From a virus: a stretch of DNA of 64,000 bases. Both the position numbers and the translations under genes were made by a program. Location: IMG/VR virus record IMGVR_UViG_3300044769_000080; one strand, given 5' to 3'. The notes beneath the pieces were generated by a model. That model was given only the letters and a program-made list of their open reading frames with translations, ran no database searches and had not been told where the DNA came from. Shown here in pieces: positions 6,441 through 55,679 of this stretch (positions are counted from its first letter, which is position 1; the number at the start of each line of letters is the position of its first letter).

Positions 6441-8404
6441 TAGCCCGATTGTCCTGACGTGATGATGAAAGAGAATTCATTGACTTCCCAACGCTCAGTT
6501 GGAATGTCTGGATCGAAGTAACTAATCTGTACAACCCCTAGCTCAGCAAACGTCAGATCCTTGAGGATGTTGATGATTTGTGTTTCATCTCCCGCTGGTG
6601 AACAGCTGATGTCTTCGCTGGTTGGATTTGTTTCTGCCCCGAAATCTCGAATCAAGCTCGCTCCAAGTGACGCTCCATCTACGGCTTTGGTGATGAGCGC
6701 ACAGCCTGCAACTTCGAACTGGTTGATGACGCCGACTGGAGTGTAAGGCTTGGTCACGATTCTGGCGGTAAAATTACTGCCATTATCATCGCTGCCGGTG
6801 TTGAGGCGCCAGATGAGGCCATTACCTTCGACGCCAATAAACGGCACAAGGTTGCGGGACCGTGATGTTGCGTCGTCGATGTTATCAGCAAACATACAGA
6901 CTGTCAGGGCTCCAGTAACCTCTCCGGTCCAAAGCACCCAACCTCTACGGTCACCGTCTTCGGTGTCGCGCATACGATTAGTGTGGAGAACCATCACGAG
7001 ATTTGGAACATCTGAGCCGTCAGTAGCAATCCACCAAATGACTTGCTGCTTCTTAGGAAAGTACACACCCCTCGCGACCACGTTAGTGGCGTCAAGGTTG
7101 ATTGATTCCCATGTTGTGCGAACATCTGCACCACAACTACGGACTTCGCCGTTACCTAGGGTGCATGGCCCGACGCTTGGGTCGAGGAAGAAAATCGTTG
7201 GTGCCCCACGTTCATCGAGCCCGCTCACGACAGAGCCGTAAAGAGCCCCACGCTGCTTGGTTAGGTTGTATGCTTGATAGGCGTTGGTGCGCCTGCCGGA
7301 TCTGATCAGCTGATAAATATGGCTGGACTTGAAAATATAGATATAACCCTGCACACCGCTGATCATATCTGTGATTGGTCCACCTTCGAGGCCGTCTAGG
7401 TCGAGAAACGGGTCTGTATCCTCTTCCATGCGCTCATCGTTGCCTGCACCTTCGGCCTTATTGACCGGAGTCCAGCCAACTCTGCTTGAGAGGGCTTCTG
7501 ACTCGAAACTCCCAGCCCACACAATACGGTCGTCATCGACGGCAACGAAGCGGGCGCTTGGGATAAGGCTATAATCACCGATATCTGGGGCAAGATCAAA
7601 GCCAGATGAGGGAGCAGCATAGCCGGGACTGAAGGCTGTGCTGTCATCGTATGTCGTTGTGCCAACCACAACAGTTGCGATAACGTAGAAATTCGCGTTA
7701 TCAACAGATGCCTCGATTTCCCAGTGAGTCTCTGACTCTCCAATCGTGGCTGGCTTAGTGATACGCGCAGCAGAGCCTGTGCCGGAAGGCACAAACGTTA
7801 CCGTATCAGATGGTTCGCCTCTGCGAAGTGTTGTTCCTGCTGACTGAACTGTGTAACGAACCCTGTAATAGCGGGTGCCGGTGAAAGAACCAGCGCCAGT
7901 GTCAGCTACTGATGGAACACCAGCTTCAGCGAGGCCGGTGCGGCGTAGCGTCGTGCCATCATAAACGTGCAACCTGTCTTGACTGCTTTTGTAGCAGAGG
8001 AATTTCTTCCCATGCAAGCTTGCGCCTCTCAGCTGATACTGATACGTCCCTGTGATGGTGATTGCATCAACCGGGGTAATCGTTGACCAGCTGGTTGTCT
8101 TATGGCACAAGGCAGATGATGACGTTCCAGTCACCCCAAGTGCCCACAGTTCAGCATCTCCCTCATTCGTGGTTGAGACGTGGCGATAGAGATAACTGAC
8201 CCGATCTTTTCCAACTAGATCACTCCCTGTAATGTTGATGCCGTCCGTGCCGAGGCGACGTTCGCCACACATAGAAACGACAAACTCGACATTCTCAGCA
8301 ACAGTCACCTGATCGTCAGGAATTGTGCTTGGTGGGTCTGAGTTGTTCAATCCTCCTCGCAGGTTAGCGATTCGGAGGATTGATGTTCCTGATGCCTTTG
8401 CCAT
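6440..8404 (-). CDS. large tail structural protein (654 aa)
   Basis: ORF track. TAATG-type overlap with neighbours. Lies among tail fibre genes. Confidence 0.5.
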   Translation of the reverse strand: MAKASGTSILRIANLRGGLNNSDPPSTIPDDQVTVAENVEFVVSMCGERRLGTDGINITGSDLVGKDRVSYLYRHVSTTNEGDAELWALGVTGTSSSALCHKTTSWSTITPVDAITITGTYQYQLRGASLHGKKFLCYKSSQDRLHVYDGTTLRRTGLAEAGVPSVADTGAGSFTGTRYYRVRYTVQSAGTTLRRGEPSDTVTFVPSGTGSAARITKPATIGESETHWEIEASVDNANFYVIATVVVGTTTYDDSTAFSPGYAAPSSGFDLAPDIGDYSLIPSARFVAVDDDRIVWAGSFESEALSSRVGWTPVNKAEGAGNDERMEEDTDPFLDLDGLEGGPITDMISGVQGYIYIFKSSHIYQLIRSGRRTNAYQAYNLTKQRGALYGSVVSGLDERGAPTIFFLDPSVGPCTLGNGEVRSCGADVRTTWESINLDATNVVARGVYFPKKQQVIWWIATDGSDVPNLVMVLHTNRMRDTEDGDRRGWVLWTGEVTGALTVCMFADNIDDATSRSRNLVPFIGVEGNGLIWRLNTGSDDNGSNFTARIVTKPYTPVGVINQFEVAGCALITKAVDGASLGASLIRDFGAETNPTSEDISCSPAGDETQIINILKDLTFAELGVVQISYFDPDIPTERWEVNEFSFIITSGQSG

Positions 8405-10239
8405 TAGTTATACATTTCCACAACAGATGCTTCGTATACGATGTCGTTGGAGTTGATTCCTTCACCAGTTAGAACAATTGGGATTGCGCTGGAATCAGTT
8501 TTAGCTGCTGTGGTTACTTCTGCTGCTGTTTGTGTAGACGATGTGCCGTTTGATGCGCCCATCAAGTGCGCTTTCGCAATGACACGTTGGGAGTTGGAAC
8601 CAATTCTGATAATTCTCAGCTCAACTTCGAAGCGTGTGTAGGCAGCTGCATTCTGTGAAACCACAATAATGATGGTGCCAGCAATGCTATCGAAACGAAC
8701 ACGAATGATTTTATTGTCTGTGTCAGCGGCTAGTGTTCCCCATGCTCTAAATACAACCATACGGCCGTTTGCGTTTAGCGTATTCGCTGGGATCGAATAG
8801 CTGTAAAGAGTAGCTTCAGTGCCTGCGGCAGTCGCTTGGGTGTCGTCCGTCTCGATAATGCCACCAAGTTTGAACTGTTCGGTTCCACCGCCTGCTGAGA
8901 CTTGGACATCTTCGGCCAGCCACTCACCAGTGGTTGGGAGGTCGGCTACGACGAGGGAACGGAACGTCGGAGTTGCTGCACCACCGCTTGTTGGCCCTGC
9001 ATACACTCTGTTAGCAGCCTGGGCTGTAGCATTTGCGGCAGTGTCAAGGACAGCCCCGTTTGACATGCTCAGGCCAGCACCTAGGGAGCACTCTTCCCAG
9101 TCACCACCAGCACCACTTCTGATGCCAACGATTTTTGAGCCTGTTGTAGACTGGACGAGGTTGGCGTAAGGAAGTCGGCCAGTGATATGGGATGCAACGT
9201 TGACGGCGTTGAGGGTGATGACCTGTGCCGCAAGCGACAAATAGTTATGCGTGCCAGCAAGTGTAATGTCGCCGGTGTTGGTGCCGCTTAGCGTGCCCGT
9301 AGCGCCATCAGAGATGGTGATACCGCTGTTCTGAATCGTATCACCGCCCGAGCCATTGAACCTGACAATAGCATTATCGGTTGATGATGCTGGACCTTGA
9401 ATTCCACCAACAGCTGTGATGATGTCTGCAACCGTGAGGCCTTGTAGGAAATTCGCATCGAGGTTGTCAACCATTGCAGAGCCTGAGCTGACTGCAAATG
9501 GAGCATCAGGGTCACGGTCGAAGGTAATGAGGCCGCTTTGCGTCCAAGATGTGCCACCACTAATGGCGCTTCCGCCTCCACCACTTGTGCCACCTACACC
9601 GAATCTGGATGAACCAGCTTCGTTCTGTCGAATCTGTGCGCCAATTGACTTGGCACGCCACATTCGAAGGTCAGAGATGCGCTTTTCATACTTACCAGCT
9701 GCACGGTCACTGAGCTGAATCTGCTGTTTCTTGAGATATTCCTCAACCAACACGCCATCGACAAGAGCGTCATGGAATGATTCTGGGAACGCTGGCTCGT
9801 CACTGCCCGTGAGAGTTGAGACGACGATGTAGCCGTCGGCTTTTAGGTTGAAAACGGTCTGTGGGAGTGCATCAATCCTTATGGTAACCGTGGTCGAAGT
9901 CCAAGACTCGACAGCCCATTTGCGAATAGTATCGCTAGCAGCCGGGTTGATGTCACGTAGCTGATCATATGTGACTTCTGGCAACATACGAATGCTGCCG
10001 GACGTATCATCATAGACGCGCTCAAGCTTTTCGACGCCAGTAAACGTAATCGTAGGGATACCAAGAGACGTTGATGCCGCGAGTGCTGCGACTCGCCGAG
10101 ACAGATCAATACCGATAGATGTTGTTATCTCTCGGTAAACATCATTCACCAGTCGCCCAATTCGGGCTCTCGAATCCAGTGCAGTTGCAGGAATGTTGAG
10201 GCGTTCTGCAATGCGGTCTACGATTTCATTAAACGTCAC
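8404..10239 (-). CDS. tail fibre/spike protein (611 aa), GTG start; globular N-terminus plus G/S/T-rich beta-rich C-terminal part
   Basis: ORF track (start codon GTG at 10239). C-terminal G/T/S/A-rich repeats typical of fibre shafts. Confidence 0.5.
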   Translation of the reverse strand: MTFNEIVDRIAERLNIPATALDSRARIGRLVNDVYREITTSIGIDLSRRVAALAASTSLGIPTITFTGVEKLERVYDDTSGSIRMLPEVTYDQLRDINPAASDTIRKWAVESWTSTTVTIRIDALPQTVFNLKADGYIVVSTLTGSDEPAFPESFHDALVDGVLVEEYLKKQQIQLSDRAAGKYEKRISDLRMWRAKSIGAQIRQNEAGSSRFGVGGTSGGGGSAISGGTSWTQSGLITFDRDPDAPFAVSSGSAMVDNLDANFLQGLTVADIITAVGGIQGPASSTDNAIVRFNGSGGDTIQNSGITISDGATGTLSGTNTGDITLAGTHNYLSLAAQVITLNAVNVASHITGRLPYANLVQSTTGSKIVGIRSGAGGDWEECSLGAGLSMSNGAVLDTAANATAQAANRVYAGPTSGGAATPTFRSLVVADLPTTGEWLAEDVQVSAGGGTEQFKLGGIIETDDTQATAAGTEATLYSYSIPANTLNANGRMVVFRAWGTLAADTDNKIIRVRFDSIAGTIIIVVSQNAAAYTRFEVELRIIRIGSNSQRVIAKAHLMGASNGTSSTQTAAEVTTAAKTDSSAIPIVLTGEGINSNDIVYEASVVEMYN

Positions 10240-10402: not shown

Positions 10403-10713
10403 TATTCTATGGCTTCTGCGTGGACAATCATTTCAGATGTCGCACCGTTCCAAGTGTTGAGGACAAAGTGGCCGCGAACTTCATAGCGACCTTCCTCAGT
10501 CCAACCATCACTTTCTGTCGTGTATTGAATCTTACCATCTTGACCGTCAGTGGAGAAGGTTGCGTCCTTTGTCAGAACTAAACCACCGGGCTTCTTGATA
10601 AGGATTTGTAGGCTTGCTGCTGCGCTGATGTTTTTGACCTCGTTGTCCTCGTAAACTGTGAGGACAATAACGGTTCCAACATCACCGACATGCACTTGAT
10701 GAATGTGGCTCAT
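10402..10713 (-). CDS. hypothetical virion protein (103 aa)
   Basis: ORF track. ATGA/TAATG coupling on both sides. Confidence 0.45.
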   Translation of the reverse strand: MSHIHQVHVGDVGTVIVLTVYEDNEVKNISAAASLQILIKKPGGLVLTKDATFSTDGQDGKIQYTTESDGWTEEGRYEVRGHFVLNTWNGATSEMIVHAEAIE

Positions 10714-12017
10714 TAGATTCTCACATCAGCTGCTAGGGTTGTGCTGACTTTCACTGGCTGCGTCATGGTTGTTGTGATGAAGACGTTTCCTTCAAGAACA
10801 GTTCCGATTGGGATCGTTGCATCAGTGATGACTGTGATGCTTGTGCCAGTTAGCGCATAGCTGCCACCATCGGCTGCAAGTGCAAAGGTTTGTGCAGTTT
10901 CGGTGTCTGTGCCGGTTAGGGTATATGAACCTGCTGACGCAGTAACATGAAACGCACGGTTTGTGCTTGCATTGGTGCCACTGACTGCGTAGCTGCCTGA
11001 ATCTGCAACAAGCTTATGGCTAACTTCAAGCGATGCGCTCGTGCCTGTGATGGCATAACTTCCGCTGTTTGCAGCCAGCAATCCTTTTGTGAGGGTTGCG
11101 TCTGTGCCAGTTAGGGCATAAGAGCCAGCGGATGCTGTAACTCGATAAGCTGTTCGAAGAGCTGCTGTAACGCCTGTGTAGGTATATGTGCCTGTTGATG
11201 CAGCAATAACGTAGGATTGAGATGCAAACAGGTCACGCGGTGGACGACGCTTGCTGACGAGCTGTCCGAATACTGATGGAGCAAACTGACGAGGCCACGT
11301 GCTGCGAGCCTTGATTCGCCGTGAAATCTGAGGCGTTGTCGCTGTTAGAGAAGCTGCTTCTCCGCCGATAATGTATTCACCTGGGTTTGCAGCAATGATG
11401 TAGTCTTGAACTGCTGTAAGTGCAATCCTGATCGGCTTGCGTAGGGTTGGGTGAAATGCTCTCGGGTAGTTGTGCCGTTTTAACTGGGTAATACTGAGGA
11501 AGTTCGCTGGTGCTGCAACATCGTTGAGGCCAGCATCTGCTCCTGTGATGAGGTAGCTTGAACCAGCGGCTGTGATTTTATAACCAACGAGCAGGTTGGC
11601 TGATGAGCCAGTGGCTGTGTATGTTCCTGGGTCCGCTGTCAACGTATAGTTGACAATTGGCACTGCGAAGCGCATTGGCTTTCGCAGGCTCGGATGGAAT
11701 GCTCGTGGGTAGTTCTTGCGACGAAGGTCTGTGAAGCTGAGTGATGCCGGAATGACCTCGGCTACGAGGTCGGCGTCCGTGCCAGAAATCGCGTAGCTGC
11801 CTGAGTCAGCAGCGATAAACCTTTCACCCTGTGAAAGAGTGGCATCTGTTCCGGTTACTGCATAGCTACCAGCATTGACTGGTGTAAGCTTGCGGTCAGC
11901 CCGCGTTCCGGCGTCTGCGCCTGTTATGTTGTATGTGCCAGCATCCGCCGTCAGGGTTAGATTAAGAGGTTCCCTGAACTTAAGTGGCTTAGCTGTGCGT
12001 AGCTGTGGGAAACCCAT
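10713..12017 (-). CDS. tandem-repeat tail fibre-like protein (434 aa); about 13 copies of a 21-23 aa unit GSYA(I/V/L)TGTDA.L
   Basis: Repeats visible directly in translation (AGSYAVTGTDATL, SGSYAISGTDADL, AGSYALTGTDATL, SGSYAITGTSASL, SGSYAVSGTNAST, AGSYTLTGTDTET, GGSYALTGTSITV...). A larger unit with the anchor NYPRAFHP(S/T)LRKP occurs twice. Confidence 0.55.
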   Translation of the reverse strand: MGFPQLRTAKPLKFREPLNLTLTADAGTYNITGADAGTRADRKLTPVNAGSYAVTGTDATLSQGERFIAADSGSYAISGTDADLVAEVIPASLSFTDLRRKNYPRAFHPSLRKPMRFAVPIVNYTLTADPGTYTATGSSANLLVGYKITAAGSSYLITGADAGLNDVAAPANFLSITQLKRHNYPRAFHPTLRKPIRIALTAVQDYIIAANPGEYIIGGEAASLTATTPQISRRIKARSTWPRQFAPSVFGQLVSKRRPPRDLFASQSYVIAASTGTYTYTGVTAALRTAYRVTASAGSYALTGTDATLTKGLLAANSGSYAITGTSASLEVSHKLVADSGSYAVSGTNASTNRAFHVTASAGSYTLTGTDTETAQTFALAADGGSYALTGTSITVITDATIPIGTVLEGNVFITTTMTQPVKVSTTLAADVRI

Positions 12018-12687: not shown

Positions 12688-14541
12688 TTAGGGGGTTGCT
12701 ACTGCCCACAACGTTGTTGATGCGTATAGTGGGTAAATACGTGCCTCAAACGTGCCAGCAGGGTCTGTGCATGTGAATGGAGAGTCGATGACCACCTGAT
12801 AAGGAATGCGGTCACTGAAGCAGACAACCATTCGAGTGATGGTTGCATCACTTGGGACAACCGTGCAGGTTGAGCCGTTGCACGTATACGTGCCAGAGAG
12901 CGTCCAGTTTGCTCGATACGGATGCGCGCCAATGGCATTGTCTACGGCATTATCTCCATAGTACACCCCGTCACCGTTCGCCCATGTGAAGGAGCTGGTG
13001 ACTGTGATGTTATTGCCGCTGATGCTGAGGATCCGTCGAACGTCCGTGCCGATCGTGATGATGTCACCCGCCGCGAGGTTGCCGCCGTACTGCGCGATGC
13101 TGGCATCGAAGCCGCGGAAGAATCCGGCCCCGCCAGAGGCCACCGTGAACGTGGTCCCCGTGCCGCTGCCACTGGTCGTCGTCAGCGGTCCAGCCGCGTT
13201 GCTCACGGGAGAACTGACGGTCGGCTGAAACAAGTCGTTGGCGTAGTCAGCAAACAACGGCTGCTGTGTCTTGATATTGGTTGCTGAGGCACCGAATACG
13301 CAGCAGTAGCTCTCCGCTGCACCAATCGACGCATCCCACGCGAGATTGAACGAGGACGTACCAGGGCTGCCGTCGAAATCATGCACAGCCGCATTGGTGA
13401 TGGCCGCGTTCCACACGTCTTGAAACAGACTATTGTTCACGCGCGTGAACGTGCCAAACCTGGTCAGGATCGAAGAGGTGCCTGCCGGGTCAGACACCTG
13501 TGTGTCGATATACGTCTCCTGCGCGATATACACCGTCGTGAAGTTGAAGATCCCATGCGCCCCACCCGCGTTGTTGTGGATGACATTCCGCCGATACAGC
13601 AGATTCCCCGAGTTATCTGGGCTCGTCTCCATGTTCGAGAAGTGCTGGTTATCGCCCGGAGGATTACCCACATAGAAATTTGCTTCAATGGTGGCGCCTT
13701 CCGTGCCGACCGTGCGCGAGCAACACCAGCCAGTCTGTGCAAAGTCCGAGTGCTGCCCGTTGTGCGGGGTATGCGCCGGACCCCAGGCGTAGTTATTGAA
13801 CACCCGAAAGCCAGGACCGTAGAACGTGTAGTAGTCGTTCCCGGCCATGTTGTGCGTGTTGTAGGCCGCGAGATTGTGCGAGCCGTAGATGGCGACCTGT
13901 TGGTTATCAACGCCATACACACCGTTCATCGTGTTCCCGAGGAAGATGAGGTTATCGTCGTTCTCACCAACAATCGGGCCAGTGGTGACGAGTGCCCCCT
14001 CGACAAACCCAGAGAAGGTGCTGTTCCAGACTTCGATCCCGTCGCTGTCCTGCGTGGAGACACAGGCCTGCGCGCCGCCACACACGAAGGTGAACCCGAT
14101 GATTCGGATGTAGTTGCCGGTCGTGGTGAATGTGCCGTTGAGGGTCACTGACGCAGGAGCCGCTGCACCTACGAATGTAATTGTGTTATTGACAGATGAT
14201 CCACTGTTGTTGATGGTAACTGTTTCTGTATACGTCCCGGCCGAGACTAGGCAGATATCACCAGCGGTTGCTGCCGCTGCACACAGATTAATGGTTGCAT
14301 ACTCACTCGGAACGCACCGTGTCGCTGTGTCTGAGCAATTGAGAGCAGTAGGCCCACCGCCTCCGGTTGGGGCTGGTGCATTGATATTGACATTTGTCGG
14401 AGCAGACGGAGCTTGCTCCACTGCTTCAGCAACACCTGAATACTCCGCTTTGTTAGGCGGATACTCGACAATCTGCTGTGGTGTAGCAGCTAGTGACGCT
14501 AGAATAGCAAGGCCGGTGAGGAGGTTCTTGAAGAATTTCAT
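12688..14541 (-). CDS. secreted right-handed beta-helix (pectate-lyase-fold) protein, putative polysaccharide depolymerase (617 aa) with N-terminal Sec signal peptide
   Basis: N-terminus MKFFKNLLTGLAILASLAATPQQ is a signal peptide. NxxG/T-rich beta-helix-like repeats. Gene is about 62% GC against about 52% flanks, giving many spurious antisense ORFs in the track. Confidence 0.6.
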   Translation of the reverse strand: MKFFKNLLTGLAILASLAATPQQIVEYPPNKAEYSGVAEAVEQAPSAPTNVNINAPAPTGGGGPTALNCSDTATRCVPSEYATINLCAAAATAGDICLVSAGTYTETVTINNSGSSVNNTITFVGAAAPASVTLNGTFTTTGNYIRIIGFTFVCGGAQACVSTQDSDGIEVWNSTFSGFVEGALVTTGPIVGENDDNLIFLGNTMNGVYGVDNQQVAIYGSHNLAAYNTHNMAGNDYYTFYGPGFRVFNNYAWGPAHTPHNGQHSDFAQTGWCCSRTVGTEGATIEANFYVGNPPGDNQHFSNMETSPDNSGNLLYRRNVIHNNAGGAHGIFNFTTVYIAQETYIDTQVSDPAGTSSILTRFGTFTRVNNSLFQDVWNAAITNAAVHDFDGSPGTSSFNLAWDASIGAAESYCCVFGASATNIKTQQPLFADYANDLFQPTVSSPVSNAAGPLTTTSGSGTGTTFTVASGGAGFFRGFDASIAQYGGNLAAGDIITIGTDVRRILSISGNNITVTSSFTWANGDGVYYGDNAVDNAIGAHPYRANWTLSGTYTCNGSTCTVVPSDATITRMVVCFSDRIPYQVVIDSPFTCTDPAGTFEARIYPLYASTTLWAVATP

Positions 14542-14542
14542 A

Positions 14543-14887
14543 TTACGTCAGTGGGAGGGAGAAATCGTCGCCAGTTGATTCGCTGGTGCCACCTGAACCG
14601 ATAGCGGCTACCTTGACGGTGTAGTTGCCAGCCGAGAGAGGCGTAAGGATATCAGTAATGTCGGCTCGGATGTTACCGTTGCTCTCAGGCACCGGCTTTC
14701 CGATGTTTTTGTTCACAAGAATCGTGCTACCACCTTGGGAATAAACTCTAACATCATAGGACTGCACTGAGGCGTGTTCAGTGGACTTAGTGAACGTAAC
14801 CACGCCACTCTTGTCGCTAATACCTTGCAGCCCAGTAACTTTGGTTCCTCGGTTGCGATGAACGTGGAAGTCGTCAGAAAACGGCAT
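14543..14887 (-). CDS. hypothetical virion protein (114 aa)
   Basis: ORF track. ATGA overlap downstream. Confidence 0.45.
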   Translation of the reverse strand: MPFSDDFHVHRNRGTKVTGLQGISDKSGVVTFTKSTEHASVQSYDVRVYSQGGSTILVNKNIGKPVPESNGNIRADITDILTPLSAGNYTVKVAAIGSGGTSESTGDDFSLPLT

Positions 14888-39736: not shown

Positions 39737-40402
39737 GTGATTGAGAAAACGTTGAACATCATCACTGCTGTTGCGTTGATCATTGCATCCAGCATCATCA
39801 GCTGGAAATTCATCTATCCACAACAGGCTGCCGGGGTTCAGCAGCCGCCTCCAGCAGTAGAACAGATCGACCAGAAAATCGAGGTGGATGCCCAACAACA
39901 CACGTTCGGAACCGGCCGAATAGCTGTGATTGAATTCACAGACTACGAGTGTCCATATTGCAAGCTGTTCGCTCAGAGTGAACTGTCCGTCCTCAAGCGG
40001 GACTTCAGCAATAGGATCAGCTTTTACTCGTACAACTTTCCATTGTCGATCCATGCTCAAGCTGAGGGCGCTGCTAGGGCCGCTGTTTGTGCATCATGGC
40101 AGAAGAAACTTGGTGACATGCACGACAAGCTGTTTTCGTCACCGCTCAGCCAAGATGTATACAGCACCTATGCAGTCCAGATTGGCTTGGACACAAAGCA
40201 GTTTTCAAGCTGCATGACCACAGATCTTTCACAGACTGCAATCAACAACCACAAGAAAATTGGTGATTTCCTTAGGGTGCAGGGAACACCATCGTTCTTT
40301 GTTGGGACCATTGCCGGGGACGGGAGGACCGTGCAACTGAAGTCTCGTGTTGCAGATCGTTCCAAGCTGGTGTCAGAAATCCAAAGATTGGCAGCAATCT
40401 AA
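39737..40402 (+). CDS. dsbA: DsbA-like thiol:disulfide oxidoreductase with N-terminal membrane anchor (221 aa)
   Basis: Active-site CPYC, cis-Pro loop VQGTPSFFVG, thioredoxin-fold layout. N-terminal TM helix IITAVALIIASSIISW. Confidence 0.65.
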   Translation: MIEKTLNIITAVALIIASSIISWKFIYPQQAAGVQQPPPAVEQIDQKIEVDAQQHTFGTGRIAVIEFTDYECPYCKLFAQSELSVLKRDFSNRISFYSYNFPLSIHAQAEGAARAAVCASWQKKLGDMHDKLFSSPLSQDVYSTYAVQIGLDTKQFSSCMTTDLSQTAINNHKKIGDFLRVQGTPSFFVGTIAGDGRTVQLKSRVADRSKLVSEIQRLAAI

Positions 40403-40780: not shown

Positions 40781-41272
40781 ATGAAGAGATTTTCGATATT
40801 GCTGTTGGTCTGTGCTGCGGCATGCGCGCCATCTCCGGTTGCACCGACGCCTCAGCCAGTTCCATCGTTCCCATCACAGCTGCGAGCTGAGGCATCATGT
40901 GAACAACCAACCAATGTGTGGGTTGGACAGACACAAGGCAGGACTGATATTACATGGGATGGCGCCGGTGACAAGTTTCTCGTGTGGTTCGAAGTGGAGG
41001 ACCACAATGTTTACGTTTCCGTTCCGGGCAGCCCTGCAACGGCTGATGGCAATCGTTACGAGACGCGCAGCCTCGACAGCGCTCGAACCCATGCCGTGCA
41101 AGTGCAGTCAGTGTGTGGAGATTCGTACAGTCCTCGCAGCGCCTCGGTCGTTTTCGGAGGAAGCAGCGGCCCGATTGTGCCAGCGCCTCAGCCACCTGTG
41201 AACCCTTGTGTCACACTAAAAACAACTGGTCAACGCTGCACTGGAGGCGGTTGTGGCAACGAATGCCCCTAG
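40781..41272 (+). CDS. lipoprotein (about 163 aa) with C-terminal Cys-rich tail
   Basis: AAGGAAA RBS. MKRFSILLLVCAAACAPSP lipobox-type signal. C-terminus CVTLKTTGQRCTGGGCGNECP. Confidence 0.45.
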   Translation: MKRFSILLLVCAAACAPSPVAPTPQPVPSFPSQLRAEASCEQPTNVWVGQTQGRTDITWDGAGDKFLVWFEVEDHNVYVSVPGSPATADGNRYETRSLDSARTHAVQVQSVCGDSYSPRSASVVFGGSSGPIVPAPQPPVNPCVTLKTTGQRCTGGGCGNECP

Positions 41273-41627: not shown

Positions 41628-41819
41628 ATGGGTCGAATCCGAGACATACACATTGTTGCAACCATCGACGGGCCTGATGGTCCGATCTTGGTGGATTGCG
41701 CCGCTCGCGAACGAGACATCGAGGCTGAGGTGCTTGTTTATCTGAGGGAGAAGGCAAATGGGATTACGACGGATGCTATCCTGGATGAGTTTGAGCGTAG
41801 TGATGCTCTTGGCGGCTAG
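41628..41819 (+). CDS. hypothetical protein (63 aa)
   Basis: ORF track. AGGAGG RBS. Confidence 0.4.
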   Translation: MGRIRDIHIVATIDGPDGPILVDCAARERDIEAEVLVYLREKANGITTDAILDEFERSDALGG

Positions 41820-41961
41820 TTGCGAAAAGTCCGATGAGACACGTCATACCGCAAAACGGTGTGAGGAGCTTGGTGGGCTTGTCATCTGGGACAACGACTA
41901 TCCACAACGGGTTCTTAGCTGCATCATTCCATGTAACTATCCTCAGGCGGAACACAAATGA
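41758..41961 (+). CDS. small lipoprotein (about 59-67 aa)
   Basis: MSLSVVMLLAASCEK lipobox (LAASC). Confidence 0.35.
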   Translation: MGLRRMLSWMSLSVVMLLAASCEKSDETRHTAKRCEELGGLVIWDNDYPQRVLSCIIPCNYPQAEHK

Positions 41962-42499: not shown

Positions 42500-42855
42500 A
42501 CCTCGACGACATTGAAATCCCGACCTTCGAGATCGACCTGACACCTCAGCCTGAGCCAACCCGCGAGTCGCGCGCTGCCCTAACCGGCAAGGAAAGGGTT
42601 GTGACCATCGTCGAAGCTACCCGTGCCGTAGCCGCAACTGATAGGGTTCGGGCACGTCTGAAGCCAGAGCTGATTGATCACTGGAAGAAAACCGGCACGA
42701 TGGATGAATATACCTATGGCAGTTATCGCATTTGTCATTCAAAGCTGACCGGCAAGTGGTGGGTGATGACTGAGGATGGTGTCTTCATGGGCTACGCTGA
42801 TGACTACATCGGAGGTCGAATGATGATTGATCAGGCAATAGCAAGGGACAAATGA
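42496..42855 (+). CDS. hypothetical protein (119 aa)
   Basis: ORF track. ATGA overlap. Confidence 0.4.
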   Translation: MNLDDIEIPTFEIDLTPQPEPTRESRAALTGKERVVTIVEATRAVAATDRVRARLKPELIDHWKKTGTMDEYTYGSYRICHSKLTGKWWVMTEDGVFMGYADDYIGGRMMIDQAIARDK

Positions 42856-43022
42856 ACATCAACGTTGCCATGATCCTCTCAACCGTGATGGTGCTTCAAT
42901 GCTTGGTTGTGATGGCATGGGCAGCACTGCACGGCACGTTCCTCAGCTTCGCTGCTGGGCTTACTGATTTCAGTCTATCGTTCTACATCGTAGGGATACT
43001 ACTCCCTGCCAAGGAGGAATAA
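42852..43022 (+). CDS. small membrane protein (56 aa), not in ORF track
   Basis: ATGA overlap. Translation MNINVAMILSTVMVLQCLVVMAWAALHGTFLSFAAGLTDFSLSFYIVGILLPAKEE. Confidence 0.3.
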   Translation: MNINVAMILSTVMVLQCLVVMAWAALHGTFLSFAAGLTDFSLSFYIVGILLPAKEE

Positions 43023-43024
43023 GC

Positions 43025-44359
43025 ATGTCACTGATTCTCGTTGGGATCGCAGCTGCGGCTGTTGTCCTCTCAGTCGGACTCGTCCTCGCCTTTGCATGGC
43101 GTGTGGTGGTGCCGACAAACATTGTTCACATTGTGCAGTCCAGCAAGAAAACCACAAGCTATGGTGCTGGAAGCGCGTCTGGGAACACATACTACAACAT
43201 TCCATCGTTCGTTCCGGTGTTTGGTGTCAATCGCATCACGCTGCCGATCAACAACTTCTCAATCCCGCTGCACGCCTACGAGGCGTATGACAAGGACCGA
43301 GCCCCGTTCGAGCTTGACCTGATTGGGTTTTTTGTCGTGACTGACACCAACCTCGCGGCATCCAGGTGTGCAAGCTTCGACGAGCTGAAAGGCCAGTTGA
43401 TGTCAATCATGCAGGGTGCGGCACGAACCATCCTCGCACGGCATGATATCAATGAAATCATGGGCGACCGTGCAACGTTTGGCAAGGCGTTTACTGACGA
43501 GGTTGACCACGGCCTCACAGCATGGGGCGTGCAGACTGTCAAGTCGTTGGAACTGATGGACATTCGGGATGCCAAGGCCAGCAAAATCATTGCTGACATT
43601 ATGGCGAAGAAATCCTCGAAAATCTCGATGGAATCCCGCACAACCGTGGCCGAGAACGGCCGCCTCGCACAGCTGGCAGAGATTGAAGCGAATCAGGCTG
43701 TTGAGGTTCGCAAGCAAGAACAGATACAGCAGGTTGGACAGCGCAAGGCTGAACAGGAACGGGAGGTTGGTATCGCGAACGAGCGCTCCAAACAGCAGGT
43801 GCAGGCCGAGGCGAAGACCACCAAGGAACGTGAGATGGCCGTTGCTCAGGTGCAAGCTGTGAAGCAGGCTGAGATTAACAAGGAAGCTGCGATTATCAGT
43901 GCTGAACAGCAGCGCCAGACACAAGTCATCTCGGCTCAAGCACAACGTGCAGTTCAGGTCACCGAGGCTGAAGGCGAACGCGATGCCCTCACACTCAAGG
44001 CCGCTGGCGTCAGGGCTGAAGGTGAGGCCAAGGGTGCAGCCAAGCTCGCCGTTGATATGGTTCCCATCACAACGCAGGTTGCGCTGGCGAAGGAAATCGG
44101 TGAGAACAAGGAATACCAGCATTACCTTGTCACGGTTGAGCAGATCAAGGCGAACAAGGAAGTTGGTGTTGCGAACGCTGCTGCCCTCGACAAGGCCGAA
44201 GTCAGGGTGATTGTGAACTCTGGCAACGTGCAGAGCGGCATTTCGACTGTGACTGACCTCATCAGCTCCAAGGGTGGAACAGCGATTGCTGGCTTGCTTG
44301 AGGGGCTGGCTGGTACCGAAGCCGGGGAAAGCTTGGTAAAGAAACTGACCGGCAAGTGA
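43025..44359 (+). CDS. SPFH/band-7 (flotillin/YqiK-like) membrane protein (444 aa)
   Basis: N-terminal TM helix, SPFH-type domain, then a long E/A/Q/K-rich coiled coil with flotillin-like EA repeats. The 374 aa minus-strand ORF across it is antisense artefact. Confidence 0.6.
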   Translation: MSLILVGIAAAAVVLSVGLVLAFAWRVVVPTNIVHIVQSSKKTTSYGAGSASGNTYYNIPSFVPVFGVNRITLPINNFSIPLHAYEAYDKDRAPFELDLIGFFVVTDTNLAASRCASFDELKGQLMSIMQGAARTILARHDINEIMGDRATFGKAFTDEVDHGLTAWGVQTVKSLELMDIRDAKASKIIADIMAKKSSKISMESRTTVAENGRLAQLAEIEANQAVEVRKQEQIQQVGQRKAEQEREVGIANERSKQQVQAEAKTTKEREMAVAQVQAVKQAEINKEAAIISAEQQRQTQVISAQAQRAVQVTEAEGERDALTLKAAGVRAEGEAKGAAKLAVDMVPITTQVALAKEIGENKEYQHYLVTVEQIKANKEVGVANAAALDKAEVRVIVNSGNVQSGISTVTDLISSKGGTAIAGLLEGLAGTEAGESLVKKLTGK

Positions 44360-44535: not shown

Positions 44536-44611
44536 GCATCCGTAGCTCAATTGGCAGAGCAGCGGGCTTTTAACTCGTGGGCTGGAGGTTCGACTCCTCC
44601 CGGATGCACCA
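44536..44611 (+). tRNA. tRNA-Lys (anticodon UUU)
   Basis: GCATCCGTAGCTCAATTGGCAGAGCAGCGGGCTTTTAACTCGTGGGCTGGAGGTTCGACTCCTCCCGGATGCACCA. Perfect 7 bp acceptor, D-arm with GG, anticodon loop CTTTTAA, T-arm GGAGG/TTCGACT/CCTCC, encoded CCA. Confidence 0.8.
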
Positions 44612-48109: not shown

Positions 48110-49159
48110 ATGACAAAAACACGTTACGTTGATGATGTGAAAGTGCAGGCTCCGATTGATCAGGCCCTCATCAACCATGTTGCCCTCGTCGTTGACGGGT
48201 CAGGTAGCATGGCGGGCCTCGAAACCACGGTTGTGCGAGTCGTGGATGAGCTGATGGCAACCCTCGCGAGCAAGTCTCGTGAAACCGATCAGGAAACTCG
48301 TGTCAGTCTGTATGTGTTCGAGAACACCCTGTCAATCAAATGTCTCACATATGACAAGGATGTCCTCCGCATGCCATCGATGAAAGGCCTGTATCGAGCT
48401 GTCGGTAACACGCCCCTCATCGATGCTACGCTCAAGTCGATTGATGATTTGAAACAGTCAGCCACGCTGTATGGTGATCATGCGTTCCTCATCTATGTCC
48501 TGACGGATGGCGCTGAGAATGCGTCGAAGCATGCGCCTGATTCGCTTCGCAAGACAATCCAACAGTTGGACGAGAACTGGACCCTCGCGTGCTTCGTTCC
48601 TGACCGGACTAGTAAGAACGCAGCTGAGAGATTCGGTTTCCCTGCTGATAACGTGCAGCTATGGGAAGTGACCGAGGGTGGCTTGAAAGATGCTGCTCGG
48701 ACGATTACCAATAGCGTTTCCAGCTATTACACGATGCGCTCTAGCGGCGTGCGTGGTAGCAAGAACCTGTTTTCGATGGACCTCAGTAAACTGTCGAAGT
48801 CAACAATAGCAAAGAAACTGACGCCGCTCACGTTCGGCCAGTATCGCATGTTCGACGTGAAAGACAAGACACCGATTGCACATTTCGTGGAGGTGCAGCT
48901 ACGTCGGCCGTATAAGCTGGGTGAGGCTTACTACCAGCTAACCGAGCCGGTCAAGGTCCAGCCACAGAAACAAGTGTGTATCTGGGACCGTAAGAAGCAT
49001 GTCCTCTACGCCGGTAACGAAGCACGTCAGTTGCTTGGTCTGCCGAGCTACGAGGTCAAGCTGGAGCCTGCGGCTACGCCTGACTTCGATATCTTTATCC
49101 AGAGCACGAGCGTAAACCGAAACCTCTTGCCGGGACAGAAGGTTGTGGTGCTATCATGA
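48110..49159 (+). CDS. von Willebrand factor A (vWA) domain protein (349 aa)
   Basis: MIDAS motif VALVVDGSGSMAG (DxSxS) near N-terminus, later T and D positions. Stop overlaps the start of the NAMPT-family gene. Confidence 0.55.
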   Translation: MTKTRYVDDVKVQAPIDQALINHVALVVDGSGSMAGLETTVVRVVDELMATLASKSRETDQETRVSLYVFENTLSIKCLTYDKDVLRMPSMKGLYRAVGNTPLIDATLKSIDDLKQSATLYGDHAFLIYVLTDGAENASKHAPDSLRKTIQQLDENWTLACFVPDRTSKNAAERFGFPADNVQLWEVTEGGLKDAARTITNSVSSYYTMRSSGVRGSKNLFSMDLSKLSKSTIAKKLTPLTFGQYRMFDVKDKTPIAHFVEVQLRRPYKLGEAYYQLTEPVKVQPQKQVCIWDRKKHVLYAGNEARQLLGLPSYEVKLEPAATPDFDIFIQSTSVNRNLLPGQKVVVLS

Positions 49160-50649
49160 ACCTGCTCCCACCTCTGCGGAAAGATCAATACTATGTCAAG
49201 GTGCTGACAATGCAGTTGTTACCTCCCCTGAGGGCCGACGGATATAAGTGCGACCACCGTTCACAGTACCCCAAGGGCACGACCCTCGTGTACTCGAACG
49301 CCACCTGTCGTGGCAGCCGCCTCGCTGGTGTCGATCAGGCAGTTGTCTTCGGCCCTCAATATTGGGTCATCGAGCATCTGTCCCGAAGATGGTTTGCTGA
49401 TTTCTTCAACAAGCCCCTCGACCGGGTGATGCGGACCTACAAGCGTAGGATTGATAACTACCTCGGCCCTGGCGCGATTACGTATGACCACATCGAGGCG
49501 CTCCACAAGCTGGGCTACTTGCCACTATGCGTGAAGGCGCTGCCCGAGGGAACCCTCGTGCCGATGCGTGTACCCTATCTGACTATCAGAAACACGCATC
49601 CAGACTTCTTCTGGCTGACTAACATGCTCGAAACCAACCTCAGCAACGTGGTGTGGGGAATGGTGAACAGCGCAACGATTGCGTTCACGTATCGCAGGCA
49701 GTTTGAAGCCTTCGCCCGCATAACCGGATTTCCTCGTGAGATGATCAAGTGGATGGGACATGATTTCAGCTACCGGGGCATGTTTGGTGAGGACGCTGCC
49801 ATCATGTCTGGCATGGCTCATTTGCTGTCATTCACCGGAACCGACACCATCCCTGCTATCGACGGGCTGGAGGAGTATTATGGAGCAAATTCTGACACCG
49901 AACTCGTTGGGGGCTCCGTTCCGGCTACTGAGCACAGTGTTATGTCTATGGGCGGGCAGGAGTCCGAGATTGACACCTACCGGCGACTCATTAGTGAGGT
50001 TTACCCCAAAGGCATCGTGTCCGTTGTCTCAGATACATGGGATTACTTCAACGTGCTCGATACTATCCTTCCGGCGCTCAGAGAAGTTATTCTGGGGCGA
50101 GATGGAAAGGTAGTCATCCGGCCCGATAGCGGTGACCCGGTTGAGGTTATCTGCCAGAGCATGGAGAAGTTGTGGGCCACCTTTGGCGGGACGGTCAACG
50201 AGAAGGGTTATAAGGAGCTTGATCCTCACATCGGTCTGATCTATGGTGATAGCATCACGCTTGAGAGGCAGGGGAAGATTCTCAGCAGGCTTGAGGAGAT
50301 GGGCTTTGCGAGCTTGCCTGTGCTGGGGATTGGGAGCTTCACGTATCAGTACAACACAAGAGACACCTTGGGGCAGGCAATTAAGGCTACGTATGGAGAG
50401 GTCAACGGTGAGAGGCGTGAAATCTTCAAGCAGCCCAAGACTGATGACGGGACGAAGAACAGCGCGAGGGGCTTACTTGCGGTTCATCGGGCTGATGGCG
50501 ATCTTCCAGGTGGTAGGCTGTATCTCAAGGAGTCATGTAGCTGGAAGGAGGAAGCTGGCGGTGAGCTGCTGACCGTGTTCATGGACGGTGAGGTTAGAAA
50601 CTTTCAGACACTTGCCCAGATTCGAGCGCGGCTGGAGGCGCAACTCTGA
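49156..50649 (+). CDS. nadV: nicotinamide phosphoribosyltransferase family enzyme (NAMPT/NadV; possibly Namat-type) (497 aa)
   Basis: Long colinear matches to NAMPT: GTDTI, SVPATEHSV, VSVVSDTWDYFNV, VIRPDSGDP, NEKGYKEL, LIYGDSI, GIGSF, KQPKTDDGTKNSARGLLAVHR. Confidence 0.75.
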   Translation: MNLLPPLRKDQYYVKVLTMQLLPPLRADGYKCDHRSQYPKGTTLVYSNATCRGSRLAGVDQAVVFGPQYWVIEHLSRRWFADFFNKPLDRVMRTYKRRIDNYLGPGAITYDHIEALHKLGYLPLCVKALPEGTLVPMRVPYLTIRNTHPDFFWLTNMLETNLSNVVWGMVNSATIAFTYRRQFEAFARITGFPREMIKWMGHDFSYRGMFGEDAAIMSGMAHLLSFTGTDTIPAIDGLEEYYGANSDTELVGGSVPATEHSVMSMGGQESEIDTYRRLISEVYPKGIVSVVSDTWDYFNVLDTILPALREVILGRDGKVVIRPDSGDPVEVICQSMEKLWATFGGTVNEKGYKELDPHIGLIYGDSITLERQGKILSRLEEMGFASLPVLGIGSFTYQYNTRDTLGQAIKATYGEVNGERREIFKQPKTDDGTKNSARGLLAVHRADGDLPGGRLYLKESCSWKEEAGGELLTVFMDGEVRNFQTLAQIRARLEAQL

Positions 50650-50888
50650 TGTGTGCCATTGAAGGATCAAGCCCATACATCTGGACGATCTACGAGAAAA
50701 TCCCAGAGAACAGGCTCACCGACGACCAGAAGCGCTTTGGCATCACCCATGAGCGTATGTCATGCGGTGATTTTTCAAGCGAGGAACGTGCCAAGATGTG
50801 GCTGGACAATGCTCGTCGTGCCAAAGAACATCCTGAGAACTTCAAGGTCGAGAAGCACATGCTCGACTATCTGTTGAGGTGTCACTAA
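50649..50888 (+). CDS. hypothetical protein (79 aa)
   Basis: ORF track. Confidence 0.4.
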   Translation: MCAIEGSSPYIWTIYEKIPENRLTDDQKRFGITHERMSCGDFSSEERAKMWLDNARRAKEHPENFKVEKHMLDYLLRCH

Positions 50889-51052
50889 TGAAATACAACA
50901 ACTTCCTCACTCCACTGATGGTTGGTGCGTGGATTCCTGTGCCGATTATCATGGCAACCTCAGGCCAGGTTCGACAGGCTTCATGGATCTGGTTGTCTAT
51001 CGTCACTACAGCATGGGTTCTGGCCTGCGTATTCGGCAAGGAAAACGAATGA
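50888..51052 (+). CDS. small membrane protein (54 aa), not in ORF track
   Basis: Translation MKYNNFLTPLMVGAWIPVPIIMATSGQVRQASWIWLSIVTTAWVLACVFGKENE. Confidence 0.3.
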   Translation: MKYNNFLTPLMVGAWIPVPIIMATSGQVRQASWIWLSIVTTAWVLACVFGKENE

Positions 51053-51168
51053 ACATCCTAGAATTCATAGACAAGCACGCAGATGGCCTCGGTTTCCTGT
51101 TGTTCATCTTTATCGTTTTTGTGCTACCAGAGATCATTGATGCGTTTCGGAGGAAGCGTGGCTAAGTC

Positions 51169-51858: not shown

Positions 51859-52025
51859 AAGTTTAACAAAGTCATCATCGTCTGGTGGAACAACCGCAGG
51901 TTTGCTGAGATTCATGAGGCGAGCTACGAGATCATCGCTGGCGAGCTTCTGCGGCTCTAACGAGGATGGACACCGGTATCTGTGTTTCATCGCAACCGGG
52001 CTTTTGAGCTTGGGGAGGAGATGAA

Positions 52026-53535: not shown

Positions 53536-53608
53536 TCGACACCATCGGGGCAATGATTTTCATCTCATTCCCAGCCACGCTACTTGCGATCTGGATGAGG
53601 AACGATGA

Positions 53609-55668: not shown

Positions 55669-55679
55669 AGGAGAGTCTA

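What the first reader, a model, noticed from the sequence alone, without database searches (positions are those of the whole stretch)
12688..14541. GC-rich, signal-peptide-bearing beta-helix enzyme embedded in the tail gene block
The 617 aa protein has a textbook Sec signal peptide (MKFFKNLLTGLAILASLAATPQQ) and pectate-lyase-like beta-helix repeats. Its DNA is about 10% higher in GC than its neighbours, which causes a pile of spurious antisense ORFs in the track.

Virion tailspikes are assembled in the cytoplasm and lack signal peptides. This looks like a recently acquired secreted glycanase or lyase (moron) rather than a canonical tailspike. Alternatively it is a tail protein whose N-terminal helix is misread as a signal.
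Basis: partly seen in the sequence, partly recalled or inferred. Interest (0 to 1): 0.6.

Follow-up and report, generated by a model that had tools for sequence, protein, structure and literature searches.

The report
Exported phage beta-helix glycan-degrading enzyme
A phage tail-gene operon carries a sugar-chain-cutting enzyme that has an export signal and paired cysteines, so it is probably sent out of the cytoplasm as a free enzyme, not built into the virus particle; its GC-rich core was swapped in from a GC-richer phage.

Summary
The ORF (12688-14541, minus strand, 617 aa) is real. It has a Sec-type signal peptide, a 45-residue disordered linker, a right-handed beta-helix and a C-terminal Ig/FN3-like module.

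The GC claim is overstated. The ORF is 56.3% GC against 52.3% for the window. GC3 is 66%, and 68-88% in residues about 100-550.

That patch is a recombined cassette (about 12873-14148). It is 89% identical in DNA to a 65%-GC viral contig that shares no other DNA with the window. The signal peptide and linker are native (91-95% identical to the closest relative).

The gene is not a moron. Homologues fill the same slot, between head genes and the SU10-type adaptor gene, in related phages (capsid about 63% identical), and almost all carry signal peptides.

Export is supported by four cysteine pairs gained and lost together, 14 Cys against 0-1 in most tail neighbours, cellular homologues with surface-sorting tags, no virion-anchor domain, and a phage DsbA-like gene.

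Best reading: a late-expressed, exported, soluble depolymerase acting on a host envelope glycan. Substrate, chemistry, host and absence from virions are untested.

The parts
12688..14541 (-). Whole gene: 617-aa exported beta-helix enzyme (stop codon 12688-12690)
   Evidence: ORF list. 24 homologues at E<=1e-3 in the word-index search. Large family: 1,182 cluster representatives at E<1e-30. dN/dS 0.083 against the L015 copy.
14482..14541 (-). Signal peptide, residues 1-20 (MKFFKNLLTGLAILASLAAT). Cleavage probably after A18 or A19.
   Evidence: Sequence. Helix 5-13 followed by disorder in the model. The same three-part pattern in phage-borne homologues. 130 of 156 family members of at least 450 aa pass a crude signal-peptide test. 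DNA here is 91-95% identical to relative L002, so this part is native.
14344..14481 (-). Disordered Pro/Ala/Gly-rich linker, residues 21-66, containing the strand-like motif QAPSAPTNVNINAP
   Evidence: pLDDT 27-48. The motif is found only in this protein family among all loci scanned. Related motifs occur at N- or C-termini of other members.
13207..14343 (-). Right-handed parallel beta-helix, residues 67-445, with family-invariant E170, H264, D266, R317, N370 and near-invariant E286, W377
   Evidence: AlphaFold model. Foldseek against PDB and BFVD. Profile hits to the beta-helix N-cap of 3vst, 7dmk and 5olq. Invariant columns.
12691..13206 (-). Conserved C-terminal region, residues 446-617: a small beta domain followed by an Ig/FN3-like sandwich (last 70 residues or so) with the conserved pair C574-C591
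12873..14148 (-). GC3-rich recombined cassette, residues about 132-556, replaced relative to the closest relative phage. Boundaries are good to about +/-30 nt.
   Evidence: Flanks are 96-98% identical to L002, but this part is only 40-70% identical. Window 12694-14148 is 89% identical to L015, a 65%-GC viral contig with no other DNA similarity to the window. Third-position differences are biased 78:20 towards A/T in the window.
14543..14887 (-). Upstream 114-aa protein without a signal peptide; FN3-like only by a weak match and my reading of the sequence. Its stop codon lies 1 nt before the enzyme's ATG. Conserved partner gene, role unknown.
   Evidence: Weak PHROG hit to part of central tail fiber J (E 0.005). 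Same gene pair in L001, L002, L011/L012 (43% identity) and L026. Junction sequence.
39737..40402 (+). DsbA-like thiol:disulfide oxidoreductase with an N-terminal membrane anchor and a CPYC motif. Possible folding helper for the exported Cys-rich proteins (inferred link).
   Evidence: Pfam DSBA 42.9 bits (cut-off 25.6) and Thioredoxin_4. Sequence with CPYC and hydrophobic segment. Weak NCBIfam DsbA-type matches below cut-off.

Best explanation
The gene encodes a late-expressed polysaccharide-degrading enzyme (a depolymerase; hydrolase or lyase not resolved) that is exported, not built into the particle in the cytoplasm.

Proposed mechanism, step by step:
1. It is transcribed with the tail genes and translated directly after the upstream gene (arrangement shown; co-transcription and coupling inferred).
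2. The 20-residue Sec signal peptide takes it across the cytoplasmic membrane (inferred from sequence and family evidence).
3. Outside the cytoplasm its 14 cysteines form about seven disulfides (inferred from paired gain and loss), possibly helped by the phage's own membrane-anchored DsbA-like protein (inferred).
4. From the periplasm or cell surface, and as a free enzyme once the cell bursts, it cuts a host envelope glycan such as capsule, EPS or O-antigen (inferred).
5. This clears the glycan around the lysing cell and its neighbours, so progeny are not trapped or wasted on debris and can reach new cells (inferred). This would make it a receptor-destroying or 'exit' enzyme.

The gene is a fixed member of the variable region between head genes and the SU10-type adaptor gene in this phage clade. 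Its substrate-binding core is exchanged between phages as receptor-binding modules are. Here it came from a lineage of about 65% GC, which explains the GC-rich patch.
For: Fold:
- Beta-helix model, pLDDT 82.5.
- Best PDB matches are secreted PL6/PL9 lyases, GH136 and RbmB, followed by tailspikes.
- The C-terminal Ig/FN3-like module is of the kind found in secreted carbohydrate-active enzymes.

Export:
- The three-part signal peptide is kept in the window, P0001, P0002, P0013, P0021, P0012, P0016, L015-L018 and P0008 (corrected start), despite low sequence identity.
- 130 of 156 family members pass a crude signal-peptide test.
- Cysteine pairs co-occur. Counts are both present / one only / neither: C69-C76 11/1/12, C87-C97 9/1/14, C554-C559 5/0/19, C574-C591 17/2/5.
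- The protein has 14 Cys against 0-1 in most neighbouring tail genes.
- Cellular homologues carry a MYXO-CTERM domain (24.4 bits, cut-off 20), or C-termini that I read as T9SS-like (Elusimicrobia) and dockerin-like (Planctomycetales).
- One homologue lies inside a polysaccharide-synthesis locus.
- In L016, L018 and L010 the helix starts right after the signal peptide, leaving no room for a virion anchor.
- The whole 81-616 architecture is shared with cellular proteins.
- The phage encodes a DsbA-like protein with a CPYC motif.

Conserved slot and operon position.

Cassette exchange under purifying selection: (dN/dS 0.083).

Precedents from papers:
- A periplasmic beta-helix lyase, VexL, degrades capsule in transit (PMC6003464).
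- A phage endolysin can be Sec-exported (PMC6116005).
- About 5% of prophage carbohydrate-active enzymes have predicted signal peptides (PMC13507307).
Against: - The gene sits in the middle of the tail-gene operon, immediately after a structural-looking gene. That is where virion tailspikes sit.
- Tailspikes are also among the fold matches.
- In one related contig (L018) a neighbouring signal-peptide-bearing ORF carries a tail-fibre motif and a phage cement domain. Signal peptides may therefore occur on appendage-like proteins in these phages.
- One phage-borne member (P0014) lacks a signal peptide.
- No catalytic residues could be assigned. There is no Pfam, PHROG or NCBIfam hit for the protein itself.
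- Host and substrate are unknown, so it is unknown whether export ends in a periplasm or outside the cell.
- SignalP was not run.
- The link to the DsbA-like gene is inference only.
Confidence: 0.6

Rival explanations
1. It is a virion-associated tailspike or depolymerase after all. Either the hydrophobic N-terminus is not used for export, or the enzyme is exported, oxidised in the periplasm and then docks onto released particles after lysis, for example through the short strand-like motif next to the signal peptide.
For: - Position inside the tail operon, directly after the upstream gene.
- Beta-helix fold shared with HK620 and P22 tailspikes.
- Cassette exchange typical of receptor-binding proteins.
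- A conserved gene pair with a small protein that lacks a signal peptide.
- A recurring 'P..N(L/V).(I/V)' motif at the termini of family members.
- In L018, a signal-peptide ORF with a tail-fibre motif and a cement domain.
Against: - There is no N-terminal anchor domain. Several phage copies start the helix right after the signal peptide.
- The architecture is the same as in cellular exported proteins.
- Paired cysteines point to oxidative folding.
- Signal peptide features are kept under divergence.
- I found no report of a tailed-phage particle protein with a cleaved Sec signal. This is a limited literature search.
Confidence: 0.15
2. It is an auxiliary metabolic enzyme: a secreted carbohydrate-active enzyme that degrades environmental polymers (for example plant or microbial polysaccharide) to feed the infected host. 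It is not aimed at the host's own envelope.
For: - Signal peptide plus a beta-helix lyase/hydrolase fold, with an Fn3-like module as in catabolic secreted enzymes.
- Phage-encoded carbohydrate-active enzymes with signal peptides are catalogued (PMC13507307).
- Cellular relatives include proteins whose C-termini look dockerin-like or T9SS-like by my reading.
Against: - A fixed slot in the late structural operon across a phage clade.
- Cassette swapping between phages of different GC, as expected for host-surface specificity.
- Late expression leaves little time for a nutritional benefit (inference).
Confidence: 0.1
3. It is a membrane-tethered or periplasm-retained enzyme used for superinfection exclusion or as a lysis accessory. 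It removes or shortens the receptor glycan, or a wall polymer, from inside while the cell is still intact, in the way receptor-blocking lipoproteins of other phages act. The N-terminus could then be an uncleaved or releasable anchor.
For: - The hydrophobic core is only moderately hydrophobic and rich in G/A/S/T.
- VexL shows that a periplasmic beta-helix lyase can reach capsule in transit (PMC6003464).
- The window encodes other exported proteins: two lipoprotein-like ORFs and an anchored DsbA-like protein.
- In L018 the homologue lies next to small membrane proteins.
Against: - The core of about 13 residues is too short for a stable membrane span, and small residues sit at -3/-1.
- Expression with late tail genes is late for exclusion (inference).
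- No lysis genes were identified near the gene in the window.
Confidence: 0.15

Closest known systems
Phage tailspike depolymerases (P22 gp9, HK620, Klebsiella and Acinetobacter capsule depolymerases)
   Same: Right-handed beta-helix fold. Encoded among tail genes. The catalytic, specificity-determining part is exchanged between phages by recombination.
   Different: Tailspikes have an N-terminal particle-binding domain, no signal peptide and few or no disulfides, and are trimers assembled in the cytoplasm (established knowledge). Here there is a Sec signal peptide, a disordered linker in place of an anchor, and seven covarying or paired cysteines. The architecture is identical to that of cellular exported proteins.
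Secreted or periplasmic bacterial beta-helix polysaccharide lyases and hydrolases (PL6 alginate lyases and chondroitinase B, PL9 Pel9A, RbmB, VexL, GH136 LnbX)
   Same: Best structural matches. Signal peptide, and an accessory Ig/Fn3-like module. One homologue lies in a polysaccharide-synthesis locus, as VexL and RbmB do (PMC6003464).
   Different: Sequence identity is 10-14%. Sequence-level matches cover only the N-terminal cap. The family's invariant residues (E170, H264-x-D266, R317, N370) could not be mapped onto the PL6 or PL9 catalytic sets. The gene is encoded by a virus inside its structural operon.
Sec-exported and SAR phage endolysins (Lys44 of Oenococcus phage fOg44; P1 Lyz and R21)
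   Same: A phage-encoded envelope-degrading enzyme that uses the host Sec system to reach its substrate before or at lysis (PMC6116005).
   Different: Those enzymes are peptidoglycan hydrolases in lysis cassettes. This one is a beta-helix glycanase in the tail operon.
Receptor-blocking lipoproteins encoded next to receptor-binding genes (T5 Llp, Cor of phi80/N15). Cited from my own knowledge, not tested here.
   Same: Signal-peptide-bearing phage proteins encoded in the tail or receptor-binding region that act on the receptor of the infected cell.
   Different: They are small lipoproteins that mask a protein receptor. This is a 60-kDa enzyme with no lipobox.
Prophage-encoded carbohydrate-active enzymes with signal peptides (PMC13507307)
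   Same: Virus-encoded glycan-active enzymes with predicted signal peptides exist (5%, 3,261 of 64,678).
   Different: Those are treated as accessory metabolic genes of prophages. This one is a conserved component of the late structural operon of an SU10/phiEco32-like phage clade.

Membership tests
Right-handed parallel beta-helix (pectate-lyase-like) superfamily | Stack of three-stranded coils forming a right-handed beta-helix with an N-terminal cap | tested here: met
   AlphaFold model, pLDDT 82.5, with about 40 short strands at residues 74-440. 94 Foldseek hits at E<=1e-3 in PDB, all listed ones beta-helix proteins. Profile hits to the caps of 3vst, 7dmk and 5olq.
PL6 / PL9 polysaccharide lyases | Family-level sequence match (Pfam Pel9A-like PF22842 or CAZy family signature) | tested here: not met
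   No Pfam family at E<=1 for the window protein. Only 3 of 24 homologues carry a precomputed PF22842 hit. PDB profile matches are confined to about 70 N-terminal residues.
PL6 / PL9 polysaccharide lyases | Ca2+-binding acidic cluster plus a Lys/Arg Bronsted base in register on the groove | tested here: inconclusive
   The family invariants E170, H264, D266, R317, N370 and near-invariant E286 could serve either a lyase or a hydrolase. No residue-level superposition was available.
Sec (type I) signal peptide | Positively charged n-region, 7-15-residue hydrophobic core, small residues at -3/-1, no twin arginine, no lipobox cysteine | tested here: met
   K2 and K5; L7-A19; S16-L-A18 or A18-A19; no RR; no Cys before residue 69. 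The pattern is kept in homologues.
Sec (type I) signal peptide | Prediction by a trained method (SignalP) and experimental cleavage or export | not testable with these tools
Phage tailspike / virion depolymerase | Encoded in the tail gene block, with a beta-helix enzymatic body | tested here: met
   The gene lies between capsid-proximal genes and the SU10-type adaptor gene. Fold.
Phage tailspike / virion depolymerase | N-terminal particle-binding (anchor) domain conserved among related phages | tested here: not met
   Residues 1-66 are a signal peptide plus a disordered linker. In L016, L017, L018 and P0021 the helix starts directly after the signal peptide.
Phage tailspike / virion depolymerase | Cytoplasmic folding: no export signal | tested here: not met
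   A signal peptide is present. Cysteine pairs covary.
Phage tailspike / virion depolymerase | Homotrimer; present in purified particles | not testable with these tools
   Only single-chain prediction was available, and there is no proteomics.
Moron (independently acquired accessory gene) | Present or absent between otherwise collinear relatives | tested here: not met
   A homologue is in the same slot in L001, L002, L004, L016 and L010.
Moron (independently acquired accessory gene) | Own promoter and terminator | tested here: not met
   The ATG is 1 nt after the upstream stop codon and the next gene starts 9 nt downstream. The nearest strong terminator-like sites are at 16969-16941 and 19506-19477. 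This was a consensus scan only.
Moron (independently acquired accessory gene) | Deviant base composition | tested here: met
   Met only for the internal cassette, residues about 132-556: GC3 0.68-0.88 against 0.44 in the first 100 codons.

The most novel reading that the evidence does not exclude
Some tailed phages may finish building their particles outside the cytoplasm. Appendage proteins such as this depolymerase, and the signal-peptide-bearing fibre-like ORFs beside its homologues in L016, L018, L010 and L011, would be Sec-exported, disulfide-bonded in the periplasm with the help of a phage DsbA, and would dock onto virions only after lysis, perhaps through the short 'P..N(L/V).(I/V)' strand motif.
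Probability: 0.08. Interest if true: 0.85.

Novelty: new variant of a known kind. Interest (0 to 1): 0.5.

Why it matters
Phage depolymerases are normally thought of as parts of the particle, or as the same cytoplasmic protein released free at lysis.

A clade of phages that keeps a Sec-exported, disulfide-stabilised depolymerase-like enzyme inside its tail operon, and swaps its specificity core between unrelated phages, would add a distinct strategy. The enzyme would reach the envelope glycan from the infected cell before or at burst, like a receptor-destroying enzyme.

Practical consequences:
- Such enzymes are naturally secretion-competent and stable monomers. That is attractive for anti-capsule or anti-biofilm use.
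- Tools that label every beta-helix gene in a tail block as a 'tailspike' would mis-assign them.
- The family is large (over 1,000 cluster representatives at E<1e-30) and has no Pfam model.

Tried and rejected
- Direct annotation failed. Pfam, PHROGs and NCBIfam gave no hit for the protein. tblastn against 50,697 phage records gave nothing for the protein or for the portal, so there is no isolated relative and no host.
- Fusion with the upstream gene by frameshift or readthrough is rejected. The spacing and frame differ between relatives: 1-nt gap in the window and L002, in-frame 3-nt gap in L001, overlap in L011.
- The linker motif as a shared tag in other genes: a pattern search found it only in this family. 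In L015 it is the first strand of an Ig-like domain, so it may be a vestige. Left unexplained.
- Homology between the window's 234-aa neighbour and the signal-peptide-bearing neighbours in L010, L016 and L011 is not supported (hhalign probability 0.5%).
- A search for the phage DsbA-like gene in viral contigs found no relatives, so co-occurrence with the enzyme could not be tested.
- The first related-loci scan with the full alignment failed for lack of a conserved stretch. It worked with a narrower alignment.
- The cellular loci L020-L024 contain no other window-like phage genes, so they give no host clue.
- Literature searches found no description of a signal-peptide-bearing phage depolymerase in a tail operon. 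The library is limited.
- No endolysin or holin was recognised in the window. A lysis role could therefore be neither linked nor excluded by position.
Full report
**Observation**

The ORF at 12688-14541 on the minus strand exists and encodes 617 aa beginning MKFFKNLLTGLAILASLAATPQQ. The N-terminus has the layout of a Sec signal peptide:
- two lysines (K2, K5);
- a 13-residue hydrophobic core (L7-A19);
- small residues at S16-L-A18;
- no twin arginine, and no cysteine before residue 69.

An AlphaFold model built on 24 homologues (mean pLDDT 82.5, pTM 0.83) has four parts:
- a short helix at residues 5-13;
- a disordered stretch at 16-66;
- a right-handed beta-helix from about residue 70 to 445;
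- beta-rich C-terminal domains.

**Composition**

The GC excess is real but smaller than stated.
- The ORF is 56.3% GC. The window is 52.3% and the neighbouring genes are 47-55%.
- It is still the GC maximum of the window for a span of this length.
- The signal lies in third codon positions. GC3 is 0.66 overall and 0.68-0.88 for residues about 100-550. It is 0.44 for the first 100 codons, the same as the neighbours.
- The gene contains 11 overlapping ORFs of at least 60 aa in other frames, against 5 in the equally long gene 8404-10239.

**Context: a phage, and a conserved slot**

The minus-strand block 1988-27540 encodes a terminase, a major head protein, an SU10-type adaptor and a collar-type tail fibre. 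The plus-strand half encodes a phiEco32-like COOH-NH2 ligase, tRNA-repair and NAD-salvage enzymes. No isolated phage in the 50,697-record collection matches the enzyme or the portal.

Homologues of the enzyme sit between head genes and an SU10-type adaptor gene in several related contigs:
- L001 and L002, which are close relatives;
- L004 and L016, whose capsid proteins are about 63% identical to the window's;
- L010, which has an SU10 portal and adaptor.

Homologues also occur in other phage types (L011-L013, L015, L017, L018). The enzyme's ATG lies 1 nt after the stop codon of the upstream 114-aa gene and has no Shine-Dalgarno sequence. The next gene starts 9 nt downstream. The nearest strong terminator-like sites are at 16969-16941 and 19506-19477. 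This is a resident operon member, not a moron.

**The GC-rich patch is a swapped cassette**

- Against L002, the DNA on both sides is 96-98% identical, while residues about 125-556 of the gene drop to 40-70%.
- Window 12694-14148 is 89% identical to L015, an IMG/VR contig of 65% GC. This is the only DNA similarity between the two sequences.
- Over 485 codons the proteins are 94% identical. dS is 0.48, dN is 0.040 and dN/dS is 0.083.
- Third-position differences are biased 78:20 towards A/T in the window. This fits a segment from a GC-richer lineage drifting towards its new genome's composition.
- In L015 the cassette is part of a 1,359-aa protein with a signal peptide, two Ig-like repeats and a second beta-helix.

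'Recently acquired' is therefore true only for the catalytic core. The signal peptide and linker belong to the resident gene (91-95% DNA identity to L002).

**Is the signal peptide real?**

Five independent lines say yes.
1. The phage-borne homologues keep the three-part pattern although the sequence has diverged. Examples are MKLLKKFLVGLALATTLGVA|SP, MRRALILLTVLLWSIPAQA|TTYYV, MRIILGLLLLLLWAIPASA|ATYYV and MRSVILYLILASSLYA|QTTYYV. P0008 gains a signal peptide once its start is corrected. Only P0014 lacks one.
2. In the wider family (1,182 cluster representatives at E<1e-30), 130 of 156 members of at least 450 aa pass a crude signal-peptide rule. Most failures look like truncated starts.
3. 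Cysteines are gained and lost in pairs. Counts are both present / one only / neither: C69-C76 11/1/12, C87-C97 9/1/14, C554-C559 5/0/19, C574-C591 17/2/5. This pattern is typical of disulfides. The protein has 14 Cys, while most tail-block neighbours have 0-1.
4. Cellular homologues are exported proteins. P0020 has a MYXO-CTERM domain above the curated cut-off. By my reading of the sequences, the Elusimicrobia copies end in a T9SS-type tail and the Planctomycetales copy ends in dockerin-like repeats. P0024 lies in a polysaccharide-synthesis locus.
5. The window encodes an anchored DsbA-like oxidoreductase with a CPYC motif and two Cys-rich lipoprotein-like ORFs. This phage therefore invests in extracytoplasmic proteins.

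**Is it a tailspike?**

Two defining features of tailspikes fail.
- There is no N-terminal particle-binding domain. The window protein has only a 45-residue disordered linker, and in several phage copies the helix starts right after the signal peptide.
- There is no sign of cytoplasmic folding.

The whole 81-616 architecture is shared with cellular exported proteins, so nothing in it is phage-specific. Trimer state and presence in particles could not be tested.

**Most likely mechanism**

The protein is made late with the tail genes. It is exported by Sec, oxidised outside the cytoplasm, and acts as a soluble depolymerase on a host envelope glycan, from the periplasm or cell surface and then freely after burst.
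- VexL shows that a periplasmic beta-helix lyase can reach capsule in transit (PMC6003464).
- Lys44 shows that phages do use Sec for envelope-degrading enzymes (PMC6116005).
- About 5% of prophage carbohydrate-active enzymes carry predicted signal peptides (PMC13507307).

The swapping of the core between phages of different GC suggests selection on glycan specificity, as for receptor-binding modules. Shown here: the ORF, the fold prediction, the signal-peptide pattern, cysteine covariation, synteny and recombination. Inferred: export itself, the disulfides, the substrate, the biological role and the DsbA link.

**Rivals and caveats**

The operon position and a conserved pairing with a small protein that lacks a signal peptide (window, L001, L002, L011/L012, L026) keep a virion role alive.

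In L010, L016, L018 and L011 the homologue sits beside other signal-peptide-bearing ORFs. One of these, in L018, has a tail-fibre motif and a Phage_cement_2 domain. This could mean clusters of secreted host-surface effectors. Less likely, it could mean appendages that mature outside the cytoplasm.

A nutritional (auxiliary metabolic) role and a retained-in-periplasm exclusion or lysis role are also possible. Host, substrate and hydrolase-versus-lyase chemistry remain unknown. The invariant residues E170, H264-x-D266, R317 and N370, with near-invariant E286, fit either chemistry.

**Verdict**

This is a new variant of a known kind: a beta-helix depolymerase-like enzyme, but Sec-exported, disulfide-bonded and fixed in the tail operon of an uncultured SU10/phiEco32-like clade. 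Interest is moderate, at 0.5.

Noticed in passing
window 39737-40402 (+): Phage-encoded DsbA-like thiol:disulfide oxidoreductase with an N-terminal membrane anchor and a CPYC active-site motif (Pfam DSBA 42.9 bits). No relatives were found in viral contigs with a single-protein scan.
   Followed up: partly
window 40781-41272 (+) and 41758-41961 (+): Two lipoprotein-like ORFs. One starts MKRFSILLLVCAAAC... and has 8 Cys and an FN3-like start. The other starts MGLRRMLSWMSLSVVMLLAASC... Possible spanin or exclusion proteins.
   Followed up: no
window 42852-43022 and 43025-44359 (+): A 56-aa membrane protein followed by a 444-aa SPFH/Band-7 protein with an N-terminal transmembrane helix.
   Followed up: no
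window 49156-57495 and 60119-61790 (+): An accessory gene set: NAMPT/NAPRTase, a phosphoribosyltransferase, a CCA-adding-type nucleotidyltransferase, polynucleotide kinase-phosphatase, RNA ligase, peptide deformylase, and a phiEco32-like COOH-NH2 ligase with a GGACT-family protein.
   Followed up: partly
window 26030-26668 and 26668-27540 (-): The terminase large subunit appears split into two abutting ORFs that overlap by one base. PHROG terminase hits were obtained for the 290-aa ORF; the 212-aa ORF was not scanned. This may be a true split or a frameshift.
   Followed up: no
window 14401-14442 (-); also P0015, P0026, P0037, P0040, P0049, P0077, P0081, P0087 C-termini; L015 near 5370: A short strand-like motif 'AP.AP(T)N(V/L).(I/V)' lies right after the signal peptide here. 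Similar motifs form the extreme C-terminus of many family members. In L015 it is the first strand of an Ig-like domain. It may be a vestige or a docking tag.
   Followed up: partly
L010 9225-10016; L016 3154-5112 and 5114-5878; L018 4266-5249 and 5249-5881; L011 1223-6152: In related phage contigs the enzyme's homologue is flanked by one to three further signal-peptide-bearing ORFs of unknown function. The L018 327-aa ORF has a tail-fibre motif and a Phage_cement_2 domain. The L011 1,125-aa ORF has 24 Cys.
   Followed up: partly
L015 4987-9066: In a 65%-GC viral contig the same enzyme cassette is embedded in a 1,359-aa open frame. It contains a Zn-ribbon-like start, a signal peptide, two Ig-like repeats, beta-helix A and a second beta-helix. 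An adjacent 370-aa protein (9059-10171) with a beta-helix-like N-terminus has no signal peptide.
   Followed up: partly
window 10713-12017 (-): A 434-aa protein made of repeated 'GSYA(I/V/L)TGTDA'-type units, probably fibrous. It is homologous to a 514-aa protein in L011 (31% identity).
   Followed up: no
window 8404-10239 (-): The SU10-type adaptor domain covers only residues 1-193 of a 611-aa protein. The rest is a Gly-rich, fibre-like C-terminal extension.
   Followed up: no
window 28271-28434 (-) and 44536-44611 (+): Three tRNA genes: Arg-TCG, Ala-AGC (87 nt, unusually long) and Lys-TTT.
   Followed up: no
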